Below, in pieces: positions 30,812 to 39,102 of a DNA stretch of 64,000 bases. This DNA is from an uncultured Gammaproteobacteria bacterium (lineage in GTDB: Bacteria; Patescibacteriota; Microgenomatia; CAYQLK01), in contig CAYOLO010000002.1 of assembly GCA_964404855.1 (NCBI GenBank), positions 67,494 through 131,493 of the forward strand, read 5' to 3'. The stretch's first letter is position 1. Every line of letters begins with the position of its first letter. A program made the position numbers and the translations under genes. Under the pieces are notes generated by a model. The model did not search any database and was not told the origin of the DNA. It saw only the letters and a list, made by a program, of their open reading frames with translations.

Positions 30812-31156
30812 TTATTTGTGAGCTTGTCGATTTCTTATTTCTATATGCGTTTCAATTATGGCTAGATTTTTGGAATTGGATCTATAAAAAAGGTCACTAA
30901 TATCGCCTACGATTGGAACAAGGCCGATTAAAAAGTCAGAGATAATATTAAAGATGATAAGTAGAATTCTGTGATAGGGAAGTCGCTCGTGTAGAGCAAT
31001 GTAGAGCAGATAAAGAGACAAGCAAAAAGCGACCGCGTCCCCTGCCCATGGAATAAGTCCGATTAAGAAGTCGACACCAAACTTAACACCAAAAATACTG
31101 TATTGGTTTTCAAGAATATTGGTCAAGATTCGCGCGTTTTCAATGTGACTTGTCAT
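30812..31156 (-). CDS. Small membrane protein (DUF4112-like)
   Basis: GLIPWAGDAVAF and GLVPIVGDISD repeated motif typical of DUF4112. Confidence 0.45.
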   Translation of the reverse strand: MTSHIENARILTNILENQYSIFGVKFGVDFLIGLIPWAGDAVAFCLSLYLLYIALHERLPYHRILLIIFNIISDFLIGLVPIVGDISDLFYRSNSKNLAIIETHIEIRNRQAHK

Positions 31157-31767: not shown

Positions 31768-33516
31768 TTACTCAAGAGTAAAAAAATCTTCCACATCTTG
31801 ACCTGAGTCTATTTTTCGCCTTTGTATTTGACCATCCTTACCCACCACAATTATATAATCTACTCCCAGATCTTTTAAAAACATCTCATCGTGCGTGATT
31901 GTCATAACTGCACCAGAATATCTTTTAAGTGCGTCTTCTAGTGTTTCAATCGTATAGATATCAAGATGGTTAGTTGGTTCGTCTAGCACTAGCAGATCTG
32001 GATTGGAAACAAAGAGCGCGACAAGTTCTATCCGGCGAAGCTCGCCAAAACTAAAATCTCCCACTTTCTTATGTGCAGAATCATCAAGCAGCATTCGCGA
32101 CAATGCTTTGTATGCGTCCTCTACGGATACAACCGCCTTGCGACGAATATAATCAATAATATTTTGATCCATTTTTGGTTTATCAGCAGTTTGAGATAAA
32201 TAACCAATTTTTAGTCCGGGTGGAATATCTACCTTGCCTTTGGTCGGAAGCAAGGAGCCGGTAATTACCTTAAGTAGGGTACTTTTACCGGCACCATTGG
32301 CTCCAACAATACCGATTCGTTCTCCACCATGGACAACCAAATCTACGTTAGTAAATATGTCTGAACCATTATGGGGATACCCAAAAGAAATATCTTTCGC
32401 ATTTAGCAGCACACCTGATTTAATTTGAGGCTCCTTCACCTCGAAGGATGGTTTTTTAGGAAGTACTGGCTCGGGTATATCAGATAACTCTCTTTCAATT
32501 CGCACCAGTTGTGATTTTGCTCTTTTGGCTAAAGCACCGCCTTTTGATCGGTAGAACGAATCGTTTGAAATGCCTTCAAATCTTTGTGCCTCTTGTTTTA
32601 GTTGTTTTACAGAATCTTCCAATTGTTTACGTTTTTTCATTTGTTCGTCATAAAGCCTCATTTGAGCTTCAAACATCTCCTGTTTTTTTTGTCGATAAAA
32701 GGTGTAATTTCCACCGAATTTGATTAGTTTTTTTGTTGCTTCGTCGATTTCGATTATTTGAGTTACAGTTTCATCCAGAAACTCACGATCGTGAGAGACA
32801 AGTAATAGAGAGGTGTTTGTTTGTTTAACCCAATCTTCTAGAAACTTCACGCTTTGCGGATCAAGGTTGTTTGTTGGCTCGTCTAATAGAATTAGATTAG
32901 GTGATGAAACGAGTATTCCAGCAAGGGAAACCTTGGTCGCTTCCCCACCACTGATTTCTGTCATATCTCTATCAAGATAATCGGGGGTCAGACCTAAACC
33001 TTTTAAAATTATTTCTCTTTTGCGAGCAAAATCCCACGCATCATATTTGGTCATATCCTCGAGCGCTTTGCCATAGTCGTCCATCAGCTGATCATCGGTT
33101 TTGCCAGCAGCCATCCGTGCGGTCAGCTGGTCATAAGTCTCGATTACTTTGGCCACTTGATCGGCACAACTATCCAAATATTGTTTAACACTACCGTCAA
33201 ATGTAACCTGAATATCCTGATTTAAATATCCAACAGAGGCTTGTGATAAAACAATGTCCCCTTTAACATCTAAATGTTCAGGTGGCGGATTACCATCTGC
33301 AACAGTCGATATCAAATCTAAAATAGATGTTTTACCGCTTCCGTTGCGACCAATTAGTGCAAGTCGCTCTGAAGGTCCAATAGTAAAGTTACCATCAACA
33401 ACCAGCTCTTTCGCTCCAATTCCTAAGTTGAGACCGGTCACAACAAGTCTTGCATTTTCTGTTATTTTTTCTTCCATCCTTACCTCCGGATTAACTCTTA
33501 ATTTTTCATTTCCCAT
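31768..33516 (-). CDS. ABC-F family ATPase (two ABC cassettes with ~80-aa charged linker, no TM domain)
   Basis: Walker A GRNGSGKTS and GANGAGKST; signatures LSGGE-like (ISGGEATKV, FSFGELRRI); start codon 1 nt after sagB-like stop. Confidence 0.85.
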   Translation of the reverse strand: MGNEKLRVNPEVRMEEKITENARLVVTGLNLGIGAKELVVDGNFTIGPSERLALIGRNGSGKTSILDLISTVADGNPPPEHLDVKGDIVLSQASVGYLNQDIQVTFDGSVKQYLDSCADQVAKVIETYDQLTARMAAGKTDDQLMDDYGKALEDMTKYDAWDFARKREIILKGLGLTPDYLDRDMTEISGGEATKVSLAGILVSSPNLILLDEPTNNLDPQSVKFLEDWVKQTNTSLLLVSHDREFLDETVTQIIEIDEATKKLIKFGGNYTFYRQKKQEMFEAQMRLYDEQMKKRKQLEDSVKQLKQEAQRFEGISNDSFYRSKGGALAKRAKSQLVRIERELSDIPEPVLPKKPSFEVKEPQIKSGVLLNAKDISFGYPHNGSDIFTNVDLVVHGGERIGIVGANGAGKSTLLKVITGSLLPTKGKVDIPPGLKIGYLSQTADKPKMDQNIIDYIRRKAVVSVEDAYKALSRMLLDDSAHKKVGDFSFGELRRIELVALFVSNPDLLVLDEPTNHLDIYTIETLEDALKRYSGAVMTITHDEMFLKDLGVDYIIVVGKDGQIQRRKIDSGQDVEDFFTLE

Positions 33517-33517
33517 A

Positions 33518-34231
33518 TTAACCTATAGCAATTGAATATATAGCTTTTTCGTTTGTTCTGTCAATTCGAAGCAGTTTGTTGAGCTTGTCTTCATAAAAAC
33601 CGCCAATTGGACAAGTTCGAACTTTATATTTTTCCGCGATTAATAATATATTTTGAGCCAAATGGCCCGCTTCTATAAAAATATATCTTAATGATTTGTC
33701 TCCGTATTTAATTGCACTTCTTCCTGGAACAGCGGTGATAACCAAAAAAACTGAAGAGTTTGCGACCCAGCTATCTACGAGCGACTGTTTTAAATCTGAT
33801 TTAAAATCTTTTAGTTGGAGTATTTCTAGCGTGTTGTTTTCAATCGAGTAATGATACAAGCCTTTTTTTAAACCTTTAACATTGTTTATAAAAATATAAA
33901 TTTCTAATGGATACCTTGCACCACCAGATGGATACGCACGATAGCTGCGACCGTCGACAGTTGCAGCAAAATTTGCAAAATAAATAATTTTTTTAAGCCT
34001 AATAGCTGATATGAGACGATTGATATTCCTTTGGCTTCTTCTACTGGCAATAACTTTTTCTAGTTCTGATGAGGGCTTGAGTGCTGGGAGTTTAAGATTG
34101 GGAAACCTTGGATAGTTTTTGTAATGAATTGTTTTCCAGGCAATCGGCCACTTATCGTACGGAATTGGTTCTGGAGCAGTGTCCGACTGTGTTCCAGTTT
34201 CGATAAAAAATTTGTTTATATAATCTTTCAT
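33518..34231 (-). CDS. SagB-type FMN-dependent dehydrogenase (TOMM/LAP azoline oxidase, nitroreductase superfamily)
   Basis: RAYPSGGARYPLEIY signature; 237 aa; 4-nt overlap with YcaO gene. Confidence 0.8.
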   Translation of the reverse strand: MKDYINKFFIETGTQSDTAPEPIPYDKWPIAWKTIHYKNYPRFPNLKLPALKPSSELEKVIASRRSQRNINRLISAIRLKKIIYFANFAATVDGRSYRAYPSGGARYPLEIYIFINNVKGLKKGLYHYSIENNTLEILQLKDFKSDLKQSLVDSWVANSSVFLVITAVPGRSAIKYGDKSLRYIFIEAGHLAQNILLIAEKYKVRTCPIGGFYEDKLNKLLRIDRTNEKAIYSIAIG

Positions 34232-35520
34232 AGGAATGGTTGTAGAAATGGATCTAGGTTTTTGATTTGTCGTTTGGCGATTTTTTCAATGCGGCTGACT
34301 TCAAGATATTTATATTCCTCTTCTAAATATAATGGCTGGGCCTGGGGAATAATGATTTTACAAGCAAAAAATCCTAATTTTTTAATTTCTGGGTCATCAA
34401 ATTCTTTTAAATAAACATCAAACCCGATTTTTTTAAGCTGAGAAGTTAGTTTCTTTAATGTGGTTTTTGGATAACTTGACTTAAGCGAAAGTCTGATTGT
34501 TTTTTTATTTTTTAACCAAAAATTAATGTGTTTAAGAACGAACGGTTGACTCCAAATTAGTCCTCGGTCTTTCAGCTCGTATGTCTGATTAATGTTTTTT
34601 AGCAATGATTGGATATATTTTTCATCAGATTTTGCTAGCTCGTCACGCATCCAACCCCGAGTATGAAATGATTCCTCAAGACTGCCTTGAACAGCACGAT
34701 TTAAATCTGTGTGGCATTTCAGACCAAAAGTGACAACAGGTTTATTTTTTGTCTGATCAAGGAGAATTGTCAAAATTACTGGAATATCATAGTCATTGTC
34801 TAATTTAATTATTATTGGTTTGAGATTGTAAAAATTGAATTCATCCAAAATATCAGCAATAATACCCGATGGATTTGTTAGCTTAAGAATTGTACCTGGC
34901 AATTTAGCAAGATAAGAGGATATAAATGTGTCTCTTTCTAAGACTTCAAATATTGCTCGAATAATCGTTGAGTTTCTATCAAGACCTGCGGATGCGCCGG
35001 TTGATATTGGTGTGCGGATAATTTTTTCTTTTTTTCCAAATGGACAATATACTGTTTGAGCAGGAATATATATCGTTTTGTTTGTAGTCAAATCTGTCGC
35101 TTTGGTCCAGTAAAGCGAATCTTGAGGCTGTGCAATCTTTTTTCGAAAGATTGGGTTGGATAATTGTTCAGGTGAGAATTTTAGAAATTTTATTAACTCG
35201 ATTGAGGGGGATAGATTTTTTTGGGAAGCAAATATTAAATCTTTTAAATCTTTTTTTGATGGAATCAAAGCATATCTTTCTACCATTTCGATGTAACCTT
35301 TTATAAAAGCAAGTCTCTCATCCCACGCAGATCCGCTTGCATTGGTACTGAATTTTTTTGACGAGTTTTTACTGTTCAATATGAACGTATACAATTTAGG
35401 TTCATCGTTATAAAAATAACTTCGATGTACCGTCGATATAAAATTTGTTTTTTTGTGGGCAGACACACATTTCTGATATAGCAATTCTAGATTGCTTTCT
35501 ATCGATTTTTTGTTTGACAT
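34228..35520 (-). CDS. YcaO-domain cyclodehydratase (SagD/D-protein-like), standalone (no fused E1-like domain)
   Basis: N-terminal ATP-site motif NASGSAWDERLAFIKGYIEMVERYA and central STGASAGLDRNSTIIRAIFEVLERD (S.G.A.G...A..E..ERD). Confidence 0.85.
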   Translation of the reverse strand: MSNKKSIESNLELLYQKCVSAHKKTNFISTVHRSYFYNDEPKLYTFILNSKNSSKKFSTNASGSAWDERLAFIKGYIEMVERYALIPSKKDLKDLIFASQKNLSPSIELIKFLKFSPEQLSNPIFRKKIAQPQDSLYWTKATDLTTNKTIYIPAQTVYCPFGKKEKIIRTPISTGASAGLDRNSTIIRAIFEVLERDTFISSYLAKLPGTILKLTNPSGIIADILDEFNFYNLKPIIIKLDNDYDIPVILTILLDQTKNKPVVTFGLKCHTDLNRAVQGSLEESFHTRGWMRDELAKSDEKYIQSLLKNINQTYELKDRGLIWSQPFVLKHINFWLKNKKTIRLSLKSSYPKTTLKKLTSQLKKIGFDVYLKEFDDPEIKKLGFFACKIIIPQAQPLYLEEEYKYLEVSRIEKIAKRQIKNLDPFLQPFL

Positions 35521-35540
35521 AAATGCTTTTCTTTTTATTT

Positions 35541-35554
35541 GTGTGAGCTCACAC
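35541..35554. promoter_or_regulatory. Perfect 14-bp palindrome GTGTGAGCTCACAC between precursor gene and ycaO
   Basis: Seen directly; 13 nt downstream of precursor A1 stop on minus strand; no U-tract after it in mRNA sense. Confidence 0.35.
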
Positions 35555-35584
35555 TAGCTTTCTTAACCTAAATTAAGATCACTA

Positions 35585-35728
35585 TTATCTACCGGAATTT
35601 GAGCCTGTGTGTCCACATGAGCCCTGCGCAGAAGCACTACTGGTAGCATTTGCTATTTCTTCCTTTGATAATTCAACCTCTGAAATAACTTCGTCGTATT
35701 CCTTGGCGTTAATGTTAGTATTGTTCAC
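35585..35728 (-). CDS. Candidate RiPP precursor peptide A1 (47 aa; absent from ORF track)
   Basis: Minus-strand GTG at plus 35726-35728 preceded by AAAGGAGGTGA SD; in-frame TGA inside the SD blocks upstream extension; product MNNTNINAKEYDEVISEVELSKEEIANATSSASAQGSCGHTGSNSGR, with a Ser/Cys/Thr/Gly-rich core. Confidence 0.55.
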   Translation of the reverse strand: MNNTNINAKEYDEVISEVELSKEEIANATSSASAQGSCGHTGSNSGR

Positions 35729-35760
35729 TTTTTTCTTTCACCTCCTTTCAAATATTGATT

Positions 35761-36012
35761 TTATCTACAGTTTCCATGACAACCACTATGGGAACAAGCT
35801 GAACAATTTGAAGAGTTTGAGCTTGCGCTGGTTGAGAAATTTGCATAGCTGTCTTTAACAATTATCTTCAGTTCCAACAAACTAAACGGCTCGTACTCTT
35901 TAAAATTTTTAATTCTTTCTGGGTAATTTTGATCAAAAAAAACCCGAGCAATTGCTCGGGAACTCGCTGCTTTTTTATTATTTAACAAACACAACCGAAG
36001 TTTGTTTTTCAT
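35761..36012 (-). CDS. Candidate RiPP precursor peptide A2 (paralog of A1; N-terminal extent uncertain)
   Basis: C-terminus ...KEYEPFSLLELKIIVKDSYANFSTSASSNSSNCSACSHSGCHGNCR aligns with A1 (KEY...EL.K....AN. then TSAS...SC.H.G...R). ATG at 36010-36012 is 6 nt from a promoter -10 (leaderless). An intrinsic terminator lies inside the first 75 nt. Confidence 0.4.
   Translation of the reverse strand: MKNKLRLCLLNNKKAASSRAIARVFFDQNYPERIKNFKEYEPFSLLELKIIVKDSYANFSTSASSNSSNCSACSHSGCHGNCR
35935..35960 (-). terminator. Intrinsic terminator/attenuator hairpin inside the 5' part of the A2 ORF
   Basis: Perfect CCCGAGCAA/TTGCTCGGG stem (plus 35943-35960) followed on the minus-strand RNA by U8 (plus A8 at 35935-35942). 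Could also terminate the upstream pilin/repeat-protein operon. Confidence 0.55.
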
Positions 36013-36024
36013 TATTGTAGTGGG

Positions 36025-36052
36025 ATTGTAACAAATTTGTGATAAAAGTCAA
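36025..36052 (-). promoter_or_regulatory. Sigma70-like promoter TTGACT-16-TACAAT upstream of the RiPP-like operon
   Basis: Minus-strand -35 TTGACT (plus 36047-36052), 16-nt spacer, -10 TACAAT (plus 36025-36030). Confidence 0.4.
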
Positions 36053-36079
36053 GATTATTTATTTCTTCGATACTTAATT

Positions 36080-38230
36080 TTAAATACAAGTTGCTGAATC
36101 GAAACACAAGCCATCCTCTGGTGCGAGGTCTTTGAGGGCGCCATTGAAATTGAGGAACGCAGAATTAAGCGCATTGGGGCGAATATAGTTAGAACTACAA
36201 CTTGAGCTATCCTGAAGCACCGCCGTTCCTCCTTGCGTCGTTACCATGTAATCATTTGGTACTCCATCAGAATCTGGGTCGTATAAGCAGATGTATTTTT
36301 GAGTAATTTGAGTACCTGTCGCGTTAAAAAGTGTGATTCCGGGCGCTCGAACTATTTGCTTAGTTGGACCCCAAACTAGAACACTGCCTGGGTTAACAGT
36401 CATGTCAGCATCCATTTGAATACTACCAGTATCTGACCCAACGAGCTTAACCTGTGTTGTTGAAACCGTTAGTCCATTAGTAGGAATGTTACAAGATGAG
36501 CCGATAGTGACATCTCCTGAAACTGGAAATGTACAACCTGACGCGGGGGTTACTGTAGTAAATGTGTCGTCTGTGGTGTAAGCAGTGCCTGCAGAGTTAG
36601 TGGCATAAACTCGGAAATGATATAAAGTTTCTGGGCTGAGATTCGGGATAATTACACTAAAAACACCTGTTGTACCCGAAGTGCCTAGACAATTACCGCC
36701 AATACTCGGATTGGCACTTAAACCAACGCATACACCTCGACCAGTAATAGTATTACCGTTATCAGAAGTTACATTTGCCCCAAGGTTTGCGTTAATCGTG
36801 GTAATAGCATTTTTGGTTGAAGACGAAATAGAAGGCGGACTATTTTTAGTAACCGTAAAGCTTGTATCGGCACAATTATTAGCACCATCACATACTCTTA
36901 AATATCTAGTGTTGGATCCAGTTGTTAATGCCGCATCAACAATGGAGCCTGTAGTTACAGACTGGGCACTAGTAGCTGAGGTCCCAGTGAGGTAGGTGCC
37001 AGTACCGTTTGGACCAGTGTAAACATAACCAAGTAATTCACTAGCATTTGTGCTGGCAGCATCATTTGGAGTGAATGTAACAGTGTAAGTGTTATCAGTT
37101 GAGACTGCGGTAGGGGTGTGGGAAATTGAGGTGGTACTAGTTGGATTAACCGTATCTCTATATAACCAAGTGAACCAGTCACTTGACCAAACGACACCAT
37201 CAGAAACACGTAAATAAACAACATTAGCCCCTTCAACTATACCTGTCTGTGTATAAGCAAAAGTGCCAAAATTGTTTGTTTGACCACTGGTCGTTGTGCC
37301 GTTAGTGATAAGCGTGCCTCCTCCACCGGGAGCGGTACGTAGCTGCCAAGATAGTGCGTTAGCGCCTGTTTGTTCTGCATCATTGGCGCGCAATGAAAAA
37401 GACCAGGTTGTATTTGCGCCTGTTCTAAATCTGCTGTTTTGATAAGTTACTGACGGACCTATAGAAACTGTTGGAGCCGTGTTGGGGTTAAGTGTAGTAA
37501 AAGTGTCGTCTGTGGTATAAACCGTACCCGCAGAACTGGTTGCATAGGCACGATAGTGATAAAGCGTGTTACTGTTCAATCCGCTGACTGCAATCGTAAA
37601 TATCCCTGTTGTTCCACTAGTACTTGTACATCCTGTAGTTGGATTAGCTGAAAGACCAACACATACACCTCTACCTGACCATGTTCCATTTCCGGCTGAA
37701 GTAACATTTCCACCAAGTGTTGCACCAGTGGTTGTGATTGATGTTTTGGTTGGTGAGGTAATAGTTGGAGGTGTTTGACAGTTAAGGGCGGTGAATGTGG
37801 ATGATGCTTTATTCATCGCTGGCCACCCTAAATTGCGATCCTGAAGAAGGATTGTGTAGCTTACGCCTGCTGTAAAACCTGACCCTCCTTTGTTCCAAGT
37901 GTTGGAATATGTACCAGATAAAAATTGACTGAAGTCGTACATACTCGAATATTTGTTATAGGGATTATCTGTGCTTCCAGCTGAACCATTTGGACCTTCG
38001 ACTGTATAGTTGACTGAAAGCGATGATATGTTTCCAACGCAGATTGGAGTTGCGGAATTAATCGTATAAGCTGCATAAACCGATTTGAGTTTTCCAACTG
38101 TGATTGTGCCGATAATTAACAACACAAAAGTCAATAATACTTTAGACGATGTTCGTGAGTATTGATTGCAAAAAATTAGAGTCAATAGTTTCATATTGTT
38201 TTTGAGTAAATTGAGTTTGAAATTTTTCAT
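36080..38230 (-). CDS. Large secreted/cell-surface protein with tandem ~95-aa beta-rich (FN3/Ig-like) repeat modules
   Basis: Signal/TM N-terminus; internal repeats ...GRGVCVGLSANPTTGCTSTSGTTGIFTIAVSGLNSNTLYHYRAYATSSAGTVYTTDDTFTTL and ...GRGVCVGLSANPSIGGNCLGTSGTTGVFSVIIPNLSPETLYHFRVYATNSAGTAYTTDDTFTTV; 5 nt after pilin gene. Confidence 0.6.
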   Translation of the reverse strand: MKNFKLNLLKNNMKLLTLIFCNQYSRTSSKVLLTFVLLIIGTITVGKLKSVYAAYTINSATPICVGNISSLSVNYTVEGPNGSAGSTDNPYNKYSSMYDFSQFLSGTYSNTWNKGGSGFTAGVSYTILLQDRNLGWPAMNKASSTFTALNCQTPPTITSPTKTSITTTGATLGGNVTSAGNGTWSGRGVCVGLSANPTTGCTSTSGTTGIFTIAVSGLNSNTLYHYRAYATSSAGTVYTTDDTFTTLNPNTAPTVSIGPSVTYQNSRFRTGANTTWSFSLRANDAEQTGANALSWQLRTAPGGGGTLITNGTTTSGQTNNFGTFAYTQTGIVEGANVVYLRVSDGVVWSSDWFTWLYRDTVNPTSTTSISHTPTAVSTDNTYTVTFTPNDAASTNASELLGYVYTGPNGTGTYLTGTSATSAQSVTTGSIVDAALTTGSNTRYLRVCDGANNCADTSFTVTKNSPPSISSSTKNAITTINANLGANVTSDNGNTITGRGVCVGLSANPSIGGNCLGTSGTTGVFSVIIPNLSPETLYHFRVYATNSAGTAYTTDDTFTTVTPASGCTFPVSGDVTIGSSCNIPTNGLTVSTTQVKLVGSDTGSIQMDADMTVNPGSVLVWGPTKQIVRAPGITLFNATGTQITQKYICLYDPDSDGVPNDYMVTTQGGTAVLQDSSSCSSNYIRPNALNSAFLNFNGALKDLAPEDGLCFDSATCI

Positions 38231-38235
38231 ATAAG

Positions 38236-39102
38236 TTATCGAATAATAATTTCTGATGTAATTTCTTGCTCTTCTGAATCCATTGCGGATAGGTGCACAG
38301 TATAAGTTGTATCGTGAGTATCAGTGTGTGGAATACTAACTGCCCATGTTTCCCTATATATTTGATTGCTTATTGTAGAAGATGTTTGAGTAAGGTTAAA
38401 AGTTTCTGTAGTCGAGTTATCTAACTCAATATAAGCTGATACTTGACCGATTGGGTGTTCGGACCAAACTTTGGCTGTTACTAATTGCGTCTGACCAACC
38501 CCTGCATCAAGAGGATCAAAATCAACTTGAATTATTTTTGGGTATGTTGTCGATGATCCAAAATATGAAACCTTCCCTTGAATTAATTCGGTAGGAGACG
38601 GTGTGGGGGTTGGGCTTGGCGTTGGGGTTGGTATAAGATAAATTGACGCCAAGGAACTATTTGCACTCGCCAGTCCAGCATTATAAACACCTAGTGGTCC
38701 ACATTTGCCATTGCACGAAAACTCGTTAGGGACTAGATTCTCAAACTTGGCATATAGTTGATATTCGGTTCCGAATTGGGAGACGTATGCATATTTTTGA
38801 TTTTTGAGTGGATCAGACGGAAGCTGCATATATGTACTCCAATTGCTTCCCCAAGGAGCAGCAGATATTTCATAGTTATCATTTGATAGTGGATAAATAT
38901 TATTTGCCACACGATATGCCTCAATTGCTGTCTGAACAGCTTTGAGATCAGATGCTCTCTGTAGATCTCTTGTTCTACGTAGCTGAATAACAGGATTGAT
39001 GGCAATTATCACTAAAGAAATTAGTACACCTAAAATTCCGATGAATACGATAATTTCTATGGTTGTAAATCCAAAATTAAGCGTACTGCGCTTACTACAC
39101 AT
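38236..39102 (-). CDS. Type IV pilin-like protein (class III signal peptide)
   Basis: KRSTLNFG|FTTIEIIVFIGILGVL with Gly-1, Phe+1, Glu+5; PTPTPSPTPTPSPT linker. Confidence 0.75.
   Translation of the reverse strand: MCSKRSTLNFGFTTIEIIVFIGILGVLISLVIIAINPVIQLRRTRDLQRASDLKAVQTAIEAYRVANNIYPLSNDNYEISAAPWGSNWSTYMQLPSDPLKNQKYAYVSQFGTEYQLYAKFENLVPNEFSCNGKCGPLGVYNAGLASANSSLASIYLIPTPTPSPTPTPSPTELIQGKVSYFGSSTTYPKIIQVDFDPLDAGVGQTQLVTAKVWSEHPIGQVSAYIELDNSTTETFNLTQTSSTISNQIYRETWAVSIPHTDTHDTTYTVHLSAMDSEEQEITSEIIIR

What the first reader, a model, noticed from the sequence alone, without database searches (positions are those of the whole stretch)
35761..36012. Second, paralogous precursor candidate (A2) whose 5' region contains a perfect intrinsic terminator: possible attenuator
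The A2 tail ...KEYEPFSLLELKIIVKDSYANF-STSASSNSSNCSACSHSGCHGNCR aligns with A1 in both leader and core, so it is a duplicated precursor. Its ATG lies only about 6 nt downstream of the -10 box, giving a leaderless mRNA. Codons 14-26 encode a perfect 9-bp GC-rich hairpin (CCCGAGCAA/TTGCTCGGG) followed by U8 in the mRNA sense. Either (a) this is an attenuator controlling read-through into the RiPP operon, (b) the real A2 start is a non-AUG codon downstream of the hairpin, or (c) the hairpin is the terminator of the upstream pilin/adhesin operon and A2 is transcribed only by read-through.
Basis: partly seen in the sequence, partly recalled or inferred. Interest (0 to 1): 0.6.

Follow-up and report, generated by a model that had tools for sequence, protein, structure and literature searches.

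The report
Terminator inside a precursor-peptide gene
A second precursor-peptide gene of a thiazole/oxazole antibiotic cluster in an uncultured, probably CPR-type, bacterium starts a few bases after its promoter and is read straight through a strictly conserved transcription stop signal, which most likely throttles expression of the whole cluster.

Summary
On the minus strand an 83-codon ORF (A2, 35761-36012) sits upstream of A1, a YcaO cyclodehydratase, a SagB dehydrogenase and an ABC-F gene. ORF nt 53-78 (codons 18-26, not 14-26) form a 7-bp GC-rich stem, a 4-nt loop and U8. The conserved -10 box lies 12 nt, not 6, before the ATG, so the mRNA has a ~6-nt leader.

Six distinct homologous loci (YcaO 74-100% identical) all keep the extended promoter, the ATG, exactly 83 codons without indels, an invariant stem and U8; only the loop varies. 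The core is under strong purifying selection (pN/pS 0.14). The N-terminal extension is open only in the ATG frame (pN/pS 0.38). No start codon is conserved after the hairpin, so reading (b) fails.

The promoter lies between the upstream gene and the hairpin, so "read-through only" (c) also fails, although the hairpin may also end upstream transcripts. Best reading: a promoter-proximal terminator inside the gene that attenuates the operon (reading a). No antiterminator fold exists. Ribosome occlusion of the pyrBI kind is the leading guess for relief, but it is unproven and E. coli data argue against it. More distant clusters have one A1-like precursor and no such element.

The parts
36025..36052 (-). 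Operon promoter: -35 TTGACT (36052-36047), 16-nt spacer, extended -10 TGtTACAAT (36033-36025). The predicted start site is A at about 36018, giving a ~6-nt leader ACAAUA.
   Evidence: Scores 10 of 12 plus TG in the scan. The -35 box, the TG and the -10 box are kept in all six distinct homologues although the spacer and flanks diverge. The start site is inferred, not measured.
35761..36012 (-). A2 precursor ORF, 83 codons, ATG start, no Shine-Dalgarno sequence.
   Evidence: ORF listed. The same ATG and the same 83-codon length, without indels, occur in 6 distinct variants. ATG (codon 1) and TTG (codon 9), both upstream of the hairpin, are the only start codons conserved in all six.
35962..36012 (-). 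N-terminal extension, codons 1-17 (MKNKLRLCLLNNKKAAS). It has no counterpart in A1.
   Evidence: pN/pS is 0.38 in the ATG frame, against 1.33 and 0.91 in the other two frames, both of which carry stops. Its synonymous divergence is half that of the rest of the gene (0.38 against 0.70-0.80), which indicates an added nucleotide-level constraint. A1 residue 6 aligns with A2 residue 35.
35984..36006 (-). Candidate weak hairpin P1: AACAAAC (36006-36000) paired with GUUUGUU (35990-35984), with a variable 9-nt loop. It might act as a pause or translation-start element.
   Evidence: It is the consensus fold of the six variants; both arm changes are A-U to G-U. It is only about -4 kcal/mol, no better than shuffles, and shows no compensatory change. 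Speculative.
35943..35960 (-). Terminator stem-loop CCCGAGC-AATT-GCTCGGG, ORF nt 53-70.
   Evidence: Folds at -12.8 kcal/mol, z = -5.1. All 14 stem positions are invariant in six variants while the loop varies. It is present once in each of the 11 loci that matched the hairpin pattern.
35935..35942 (-). U8 tract of the terminator, ORF nt 71-78, encoding part of V-F-F.
   Evidence: Exactly eight T in all six distinct variants. Synonymous positions are also invariant.
35764..35832 (-). A2 core region, codons 61-83 (TSASSNSSNCSACSHSGCHGNCR), rich in Ser and Cys.
   Evidence: pN/pS 0.14; variable columns by codon position are 6, 5 and 20 of 23. There is a weak sub-threshold match to the thiazolylpeptide-type bacteriocin family NF033400 (18.2 bits against a cut-off of 30).
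35585..35728 (-). A1 precursor, 47 aa, GTG start, with the strong ribosome-binding site AAGGAGGTG at 35747-35739.
   Evidence: It is conserved in all close loci. A1-like single precursors occur in distant clusters.
34228..35520 (-). YcaO cyclodehydratase of the SagD family.
   Evidence: Pfam PF02624 E = 4.8e-39. TIGR03604 scores 178.5 bits, below its cut-off of 219.25.
33518..34231 (-). SagB-type FMN dehydrogenase.
   Evidence: TIGR03605 scores 131.5 bits, above its cut-off of 78.4.
31768..33516 (-). ABC-F protein of the ribosomal-protection type, a putative immunity gene.
   Evidence: NF000355 scores 403.8 bits, above its cut-off of 380. A promoter-like site scoring 11 of 12 lies at 33564-33535.

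Best explanation
A2 is a genuine second precursor gene of a YcaO/SagB azole-peptide cluster. It is translated from the conserved ATG at 36012.

Transcription starts at a conserved extended -10 promoter about 6 nt upstream of that ATG. After 52 nt of coding sequence, RNA polymerase meets a canonical intrinsic terminator: a 7-bp GC-rich stem, a 4-nt loop and U8. This terminator is written into codons 18-26 of A2. It therefore lies between the only conserved promoter and everything downstream (the rest of A2, A1, YcaO and SagB), and it acts as a promoter-proximal attenuator. Most transcripts would end as an ~84-nt RNA without a stop codon. Only read-through transcripts express the cluster.

Shown by sequence: the anatomy, its strict nucleotide-level conservation, the coding status of the whole ORF, and the absence of any antiterminator fold.

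Inferred:
- That termination actually occurs.
- That the hairpin may also end transcripts from the co-directional upstream genes.
- That relief comes from a ribosome loaded on the near-5'-terminal AUG, which follows the polymerase closely enough to cover the 5' arm of the stem, as at the pyrBI attenuator. The weak hairpin P1 may help as a pause. I put this relief mechanism at about 0.3. Constitutive partial read-through, or a trans-acting factor, are the alternatives.
For: The promoter scores 10 of 12 plus TG, and its -35 box, TG and -10 box are conserved in six distinct loci with divergent flanks.

The hairpin folds at -12.8 kcal/mol with z = -5.1. It is followed by U8 and is unique in the window, with 0 expected by chance. 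All 14 stem positions and all 8 U are invariant, including the third-codon positions inside them. Elsewhere in the gene most third positions vary (30 of 34 in the leader, 20 of 23 in the core).

The organism uses terminators of the same type at three ordinary gene ends, 17-32 nt after the stop codon. This one is 119 nt after the upstream stop and follows the promoter.

In L003 the element stays with the A2 unit although the pilin and adhesin genes are absent.

No promoter-like site is predicted between the hairpin and A1 or YcaO.

The ORF is real from the ATG onward. It has 83 codons with no indel in six variants, core pN/pS of 0.14, and extension pN/pS of 0.38 in this frame only. No alternative start is conserved.

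No alternative fold competes with the terminator. That fits a ribosome-occlusion or factor-dependent attenuator rather than a trp- or erm-type one.

The principle that a closely trailing ribosome suppresses intrinsic terminators, and that the pyrBI leader ORF runs through its attenuator, is published (PMC5021804; PMC4824070).
Against: There are no transcript data, so the start site, the 3' ends and the read-through level are all inferred.

In E. coli a terminator within the first 100 bp of an ORF kept most of its efficiency; translation lowered it by only ~10%. The first ribosome cannot catch the polymerase that early unless there is a dedicated pause (PMC4824070). An in-frame pyrL hairpin still cut expression ~18-fold (PMC5021804).

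The only candidate pause hairpin, P1, is weak, no better than shuffles, and lacks covariation.

If the organism has 'runaway' transcription, translation would not protect the transcript at all (abstract of PMC13323073, listed).

The stems are supported by invariance only, from six closely related variants, not by compensatory changes.

A strong promoter followed by a strong terminator is wasteful, and the terminated RNAs would lack a stop codon and need ribosome rescue.

The hairpin is also the first terminator downstream of the co-directional upstream gene in both genomic contexts. Conservation for that role alone cannot be excluded.
Confidence: 0.55

Rival explanations
1. The hairpin is primarily the terminator of the co-directional upstream genes (pilin-like and FN3 adhesin-like genes here, a small membrane-protein gene in L003). 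In a compact genome the next operon's promoter and the first 26 codons of A2 have come to overlap it. Transcripts from the A2 promoter pass it only by constitutive leakage, with no regulation.
For: All these genes are on the same strand, and no other terminator lies between the adhesin stop (36080) and the hairpin. The same holds in L003 after a different upstream gene. No antiterminator or sensor structure was found. E. coli data say a terminator this early in an ORF stays efficient.
Against: The hairpin lies 119 nt after the upstream stop, whereas the three ordinary terminators in the window lie 17-32 nt after theirs. The conserved promoter is upstream of the hairpin in all six variants. That arrangement would cripple the cluster unless read-through were intended. 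The ATG, the frame and the 83-codon length are kept across the hairpin.
Confidence: 0.25
2. Promoter plus terminator define a small RNA gene of ~84 nt whose function is its own, for example base-pairing regulation. A2 translation from occasional read-through transcripts is secondary.
For: The anatomy of promoter, ~84 nt and strong terminator is that of a small-RNA gene. The only weak Rfam similarities are to small RNAs (STnc300, MicC and MicX, all far below threshold). Synonymous sites in the first 17 codons are unusually conserved (pS 0.38 against 0.70-0.80).
Against: No Rfam family is reached. The 5' part folds no better than shuffles. The RNA begins with a conserved AUG, and the reading frame stays open and of constant length into a core under strong purifying selection. 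That is unexpected for a pure non-coding RNA. No target was identified.
Confidence: 0.1
3. A2 really starts after the hairpin at a non-AUG or rare codon (for example ATT at codon 34, or TTG at codons 45-46). The upstream 26-33 codons would then be an untranslated leader containing the attenuator.
For: A1, the paralogue, aligns only from A2 residue ~30 onward. The thiazolyl_B profile also matches only residues 43-78. Codons 2-17 show little third-position bias: 7, 6 and 9 variable columns of 16 at positions 1, 2 and 3.
Against: No ATG, GTG or TTG after the hairpin is conserved. Codon 34 is ATT, ATA or CTC across variants. Codon 45 is TTG in only 3 of 6. No Shine-Dalgarno-like motif precedes any candidate apart from an occasional AGGA tetramer near codons 51-54 in two variants. 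The ATG frame is the only open one, and it has no indel between the ATG and the core in six variants.
Confidence: 0.04

Closest known systems
pyrBI (pyrL) attenuator of Escherichia coli
   Same: A short distance after the promoter, an ORF is read through an intrinsic terminator. There is no antiterminator fold. A ribosome that follows the polymerase closely suppresses hairpin formation (PMC5021804; PMC4824070).
   Different: pyrL is a separate leader peptide (about 44 codons, from my own knowledge) with its own ribosome-binding site and UTP-sensitive pause sites upstream of the terminator. Here the ORF continues into a functional precursor peptide, the leader is ~6 nt without a Shine-Dalgarno sequence, and no convincing pause element or nucleotide-sensing tract was found.
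Leader-peptide attenuators of ribosome-targeting resistance genes (erm, yxjB/tlrB, ABC-F genes such as vmlR)
   Same: A short ORF and a terminator lie at the 5' end of a transcription unit, and the cluster's last gene is an ABC-F ribosomal-protection-type gene. RNA polymerase pausing plus a drug-stalled ribosome sets read-through in those systems (title and abstract of PMC6851288, listed).
   Different: From my own knowledge, those systems use a separate upstream ORF and mutually exclusive antiterminator and terminator folds. No alternative fold exists here. The ABC-F gene also has its own promoter-like site.
Hairpins after RiPP precursor genes that set the ratio of precursor to enzyme
   Same: A hairpin is used in the same operon type. 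The distant relatives L017 and L018 carry a GC-rich hairpin between precursor and YcaO. The window has an invariant palindrome there (35541-35554).
   Different: The A2 terminator lies upstream, inside the first precursor's ORF and directly after the promoter. It therefore limits precursor and enzymes alike, rather than enriching the precursor transcript.
Precursors of linear azole-containing peptides / TOMMs (McbA, SagA, and the klebsazolicin and phazolicin precursors)
   Same: A small ORF with a Ser/Cys-rich C-terminal core lies directly upstream of YcaO and SagB-type dehydrogenase genes.
   Different: The leader is about 60 residues long, and its first 26 codons double as a terminator. No family HMM is reached. 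No separate E1-like or Ocin-ThiF partner gene is present. The A2-bearing clade has no leader-peptidase gene, unlike its distant relatives.

Membership tests
Intrinsic (Rho-independent) terminator | GC-rich stem-loop on the transcribed strand | tested here: met
   7-bp stem with 6 G-C pairs and a 4-nt loop, -12.8 kcal/mol, z = -5.1.
Intrinsic (Rho-independent) terminator | Uninterrupted U-tract immediately 3' of the stem | tested here: met
   U8 with 0 nt of spacing, invariant in six variants.
Intrinsic (Rho-independent) terminator | RNA 3' ends produced at the U-tract | not testable with these tools
   No transcript data are available. Terminators of the same type lie at three ordinary gene ends in the window, which suggests the organism uses them.
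Transcription attenuator (5'-proximal regulated terminator) | Terminator located between the transcription start and the structural genes | tested here: met
   The conserved promoter at 36052-36025 precedes the hairpin at 35960-35935. No promoter-like site lies downstream of the hairpin before YcaO. The start site itself is inferred.
Transcription attenuator (5'-proximal regulated terminator) | Mutually exclusive antiterminator structure (trp, erm or riboswitch type) | tested here: not met
   The consensus fold and forced-alternative folds give no conserved competitor. Alternatives are 5-10 kcal/mol worse and differ between variants. The pyrBI type does not require this feature.
Transcription attenuator (5'-proximal regulated terminator) | Read-through that changes with a signal | not testable with these tools
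   This needs reporters or transcriptomics.
pyrBI-type translation-coupled attenuator | Translated ORF that spans the terminator | tested here: met
   The ATG frame is open through the hairpin in six variants. pN/pS is 0.38 in this frame only, and the downstream core has pN/pS 0.14. Translation is inferred from selection, not observed.
pyrBI-type translation-coupled attenuator | Pause element that lets the ribosome catch the polymerase | tested here: inconclusive
   The candidate P1 hairpin is conserved with G-U-compatible changes only. It is weak and no better than shuffles.
Leaderless mRNA | Transcription starts at, or within 1-2 nt of, the start codon (-10 box about 6-7 nt upstream) | tested here: not met
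   The conserved -10 box ends 12-13 nt before the ATG. The genome's clear leaderless genes peak at 6-7 nt (9 of 46 genes). A ~6-nt leader is predicted.
Leaderless mRNA | No Shine-Dalgarno sequence | tested here: met
   The sequence cccactacaataATG has no Shine-Dalgarno motif. Such motifs are rare genome-wide (3 of 59 ORFs).
TOMM / linear azole-containing peptide precursor | Small ORF with a Cys/Ser/Thr-rich core adjacent to YcaO and SagB-type dehydrogenase genes | tested here: met
   Core SSNSSNCSACSHSGCHGNCR. YcaO matches PF02624 at 4.8e-39, and SagB matches TIGR03605 above its cut-off.
TOMM / linear azole-containing peptide precursor | Match to a curated precursor family model | tested here: not met
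   The best match is NF033400 thiazolyl_B at 18.2 bits, below its cut-off of 30. No Pfam hit.
TOMM / linear azole-containing peptide precursor | Azole formation on the core | not testable with these tools
   This needs expression and mass spectrometry.
Paralogue of A1 | Significant sequence similarity in leader and core | tested here: inconclusive
   hhalign E = 1.5e-4 but probability 51% over 38 columns. Shared motifs are KE(Y/F)(D/E), EL and C-x-H-(S/T)-G. The two genes are adjacent and in the same orientation.

The most novel reading that the evidence does not exclude
The precursor gene licenses transcription of its own biosynthetic operon. Only when a ribosome loads on the near-5'-terminal AUG of A2 and trails the polymerase through codons 1-17 is the embedded terminator masked. 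Expression of the cluster is then gated by translation-initiation capacity. Because the likely product targets the ribosome (there is an ABC-F immunity gene), the gate would also respond to the product itself, giving a feedback loop. This would be a leader-peptide attenuator fused to the structural RiPP gene, in a genome dominated by leaderless mRNAs.
Probability: 0.2. Interest if true: 0.7.

Novelty: new variant of a known kind. Interest (0 to 1): 0.5.

Why it matters
Attenuators normally sit in untranslated leaders or in separate mini-ORFs. Here a canonical terminator is written into the first 26 codons of a structural gene, directly after its promoter, and it is strictly conserved. If it works as read, every transcript of this peptide-antibiotic cluster must pass a stop signal that only translation or a factor can override.

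That gives a compact, testable model for how transcription and translation are coupled in an uncultured lineage that rarely uses Shine-Dalgarno sequences. It also suggests how a self-toxic, probably ribosome-targeting, peptide is kept under control.

There is a practical caution for genome mining. Gene callers and RiPP miners would either miss A2 or mis-assign its start, and heterologous expression from the native promoter may fail at the terminator.

Tried and rejected
- Known RNA family: Rfam at a permissive E-value over 35400-36200, and at gathering thresholds over the whole window, gave nothing at threshold. The weak small-RNA and Leu-leader hits (13.7-32.3 bits against gathering scores of 35-128) look driven by the terminator.
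- Antiterminator: the consensus fold and forced-alternative folds of the 84-nt leader found nothing conserved.
- Start after the hairpin: an enumeration of all in-frame canonical and rare start codons in six variants found none conserved and none preceded by a strong Shine-Dalgarno motif.
- Second promoter downstream of the hairpin: none in the scan. My manual inspection of the end of A2 found only poor matches.
- Repeated or mobile element: the hairpin occurs once in the window.
- tRNA or other gene overlap: none.
- Protein homologues of A2: the only hit was one 83-aa cluster, represented by a sequence identical to the window's, whose second member differs at one residue. The metagenome scan with the A2 alignment returned only near-identical loci. 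More distant A2 forms could therefore not be found.
- P1 as a proven structure: no covariation and no energy excess. I kept it only as a candidate.
- 'Origin discrimination' (only 5'-terminal AUGs are translated, so upstream read-through transcripts terminate while own-promoter transcripts pass): I down-weighted this because internal genes without a Shine-Dalgarno sequence, such as YcaO, are common in this genome.
- Cys-codon sensing by the single conserved Cys8 codon: I considered it, but one codon is too little to support it.
- Literature: nothing links ABC-F with YcaO azole peptides. The three papers returned for leaderless genes in CPR bacteria gave nothing usable: I opened one, which held the terms only in its reference list, and did not read the other two.

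Full report
**Layout.** All relevant genes are on the minus strand. In order of transcription they are:
- a pilin-like gene (38236-39102) and a large FN3-containing surface protein (36080-38230);
- A2 (35761-36012, 83 aa);
- A1 (35585-35728, 47 aa, GTG start behind a strong AAGGAGGTG site);
- a YcaO cyclodehydratase (34228-35520; PF02624, E = 4.8e-39);
- a SagB-type dehydrogenase (33518-34231; TIGR03605 above cut-off);
- an ABC-F protein that passes the NCBIfam cut-off for ribosomal-protection-like ABC-F (31768-33516; 403.8 bits against 380).

This is an azole-peptide (TOMM / linear azole-containing peptide) cluster. More distant YcaO homologues are labelled Microgenomates and Levybacteria, so the organism is probably a CPR-type bacterium.

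**The observation.** The palindrome CCCGAGCAATTGCTCGGG (35960-35943) is followed at once by T8 (35942-35935).
- It folds at -12.8 kcal/mol, z = -5.1.
- It is unique in the window, with none expected by chance.
- It occupies ORF nt 53-78, which is codons 18-26, not 14-26.

Between the upstream stop codon (36080) and the ATG (36012) lies a promoter: TTGACT, 16 nt, TG-n-TACAAT (36052-36025; 10 of 12 plus TG). Its -10 box ends 12 nt before the ATG, so the predicted transcript has a ~6-nt leader.

This organism often uses truly leaderless genes. A -10 box ends 6-7 nt before the ATG in 9 of 46 genes, and Shine-Dalgarno-like motifs precede only 3 of 59 ORFs. A2 is close to that design but does not match it.

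**Homologous loci.** I obtained the region from eleven further loci, which give six distinct A2 sequences including the window's. Their YcaO proteins are 74-100% identical to the window's. Every one keeps:
- the -35 box, the TG and the -10 box, despite diverged spacers and flanks;
- the ATG;
- exactly 83 codons with no indel;
- the 7-bp stem, without a single change;
- eight U.

Only the 4-nt loop varies: AATT, AGCT, AGTT, AATG or AGTC.

In L003 the pilin and adhesin genes are missing, and the promoter-ATG-terminator-A2 unit follows a different gene. The element therefore travels with A2.

Clusters with 31-47% YcaO identity differ. Those whose upstream region could be read have a single A1-like precursor behind an ordinary promoter, no A2 and no terminator before the precursor. 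L008 and L013 show a clear ribosome-binding site. L017 and L018 instead have a GC-rich hairpin after the precursor. A2 and its embedded terminator are thus an innovation of one narrow clade.

**Is the whole ORF coding?**
- The core (codons 61-83) has pN/pS 0.14. Variable columns by codon position are 6, 5 and 20 of 23, so it is certainly translated.
- The only start codons conserved in all six variants are ATG (codon 1) and TTG (codon 9), both upstream of the hairpin. After the hairpin, codon 34 is ATT, ATA or CTC, codon 45 is TTG in three variants only, and no candidate is preceded by a strong Shine-Dalgarno motif.
- Codons 2-17 have pN/pS 0.38 in the ATG frame. The other two frames give 1.33 and 0.91, and both contain stops.
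- Synonymous divergence in codons 2-17 is half that of the rest of the gene (0.38 against 0.70-0.80). This points to an added nucleotide-level constraint.
- A1 aligns with A2 only from about residue 30 (hhalign E = 1.5e-4, probability 51%). The first ~29 residues are therefore an extension specific to A2.

**What the hairpin does.** Terminators of the same type stand at three ordinary gene ends in the window, 17-32 nt after the stop codon. The organism therefore appears to use intrinsic termination.

The A2 hairpin is 119 nt after the upstream stop and downstream of the promoter. No other promoter is predicted before YcaO. Everything transcribed from the conserved promoter must pass this terminator, which is the anatomy of an attenuator.

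I found no alternative fold that could compete with the terminator and no Rfam family. Attenuators of the trp, erm or riboswitch type are therefore unlikely.

The remaining options are:
- a pyrBI-like mechanism, in which the ribosome translating through the terminator masks it (PMC5021804);
- a trans-acting factor;
- constant partial read-through.

A weak conserved hairpin (AACAAAC paired with GUUUGUU, ORF nt 7-29, variable loop, two A-U to G-U changes) could serve as a pause. It is not supported by energy or by covariation.

**Evidence against ribosome occlusion.** In E. coli, a terminator within the first 100 bp of an ORF kept nearly all its efficiency, unless a pause synchronised ribosome and polymerase (PMC4824070). 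Terminated transcripts would also lack a stop codon. I therefore hold the general attenuator reading at about 0.55 and the ribosome-occlusion mechanism at about 0.3.

**Rivals.**
- The hairpin may primarily, or additionally, end transcripts from the co-directional upstream genes. It is the first terminator after them in both genomic contexts.
- Promoter plus terminator could define an ~84-nt small RNA.
- A start after the hairpin is very unlikely.

**Verdict.** A2 is a real second precursor translated from the upstream ATG. The terminator is a strictly conserved functional element inside its first 26 codons. It is best read as a promoter-proximal attenuator fused to the structural gene, a new variant of a known kind of control whose relief mechanism remains open. 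Transcript mapping and simple reporter or in vitro termination assays would settle it.

Noticed in passing
window 31768-33516 (-), promoter-like site 33564-33535: The last gene of the azole-peptide cluster is an ABC-F protein that passes the NCBIfam ribosomal-protection cut-off. It has its own 11-of-12 promoter-like site inside the end of the SagB gene. ABC-type twin-ATPase genes (PF00005 twice plus the PF12848 linker) also follow the YcaO/SagB genes in distant relatives (L008, L011, L013, L018). This suggests the product targets the ribosome. I found no paper that links ABC-F with YcaO azole peptides.
   Followed up: partly
window 35541-35554: An invariant 14-nt palindrome, GTGTGAGCTCACAC, lies between A1 and YcaO. 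It is identical in all close loci and unique in the window. No U-tract follows it. It could be an RNA stabilising or processing hairpin, or a protein-binding site. Distant relatives have a GC-rich hairpin at the same place.
   Followed up: partly
whole window, e.g. genes starting at 31156 (-), 42617 (+), 44437 (-), 45874 (-), 54309 (-): Gene expression looks dominated by leaderless mRNAs. A good -10 box ends 6-7 nt before the ATG in 9 of 46 ATG-start genes. Shine-Dalgarno-like motifs precede only 3 of 59 ORFs. A1 carries one of the few strong ones.
   Followed up: partly
L008 2958-3683, L011 5072-5779, L013 4991-5698, L017 2385-3125, L018 3497-4213: Distant relatives of the cluster carry a C39-like peptidase gene between SagB and the ABC-F gene. 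The A2-bearing clade, including the window, has none. Leader removal must be done differently there.
   Followed up: no
L014 1-300: This JGI contig is L001-like from the promoter to the 5' arm of the hairpin and window-like from the loop onward. This is either recombination between strains at the invariant hairpin or a chimeric assembly.
   Followed up: no
window 35933-35942 (-) and the same site in homologues: One extra U in the U8 tract, by transcriptional slippage, would create an immediate stop codon in every variant: the next two bases are GA, AA or AG, giving TGA, TAA or TAG. This could be chance in an AT-rich genome.
   Followed up: no
protein P0047 (a variant of the window's A2): A second database copy of A2 differs only by V24F. 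Inferred from the protein: a G-to-T change of the last stem base, giving a 6-bp stem and U9. This could be natural variation or a sequencing error.
   Followed up: no
L001, L002 record titles: The two public MAGs that carry the locus are titled 'uncultured Gammaproteobacteria'. The YcaO relatives are labelled Microgenomates and Levybacteria, and pilin-like genes and rare Shine-Dalgarno sites point the same way. The titles look like misassignments.
   Followed up: no
window 34228-35520 (-): The YcaO is 430 aa. Neither this cluster nor its relatives have a separate E1-like or Ocin-ThiF partner gene. The first ~65 residues are unassigned and may carry leader recognition.
   Followed up: no
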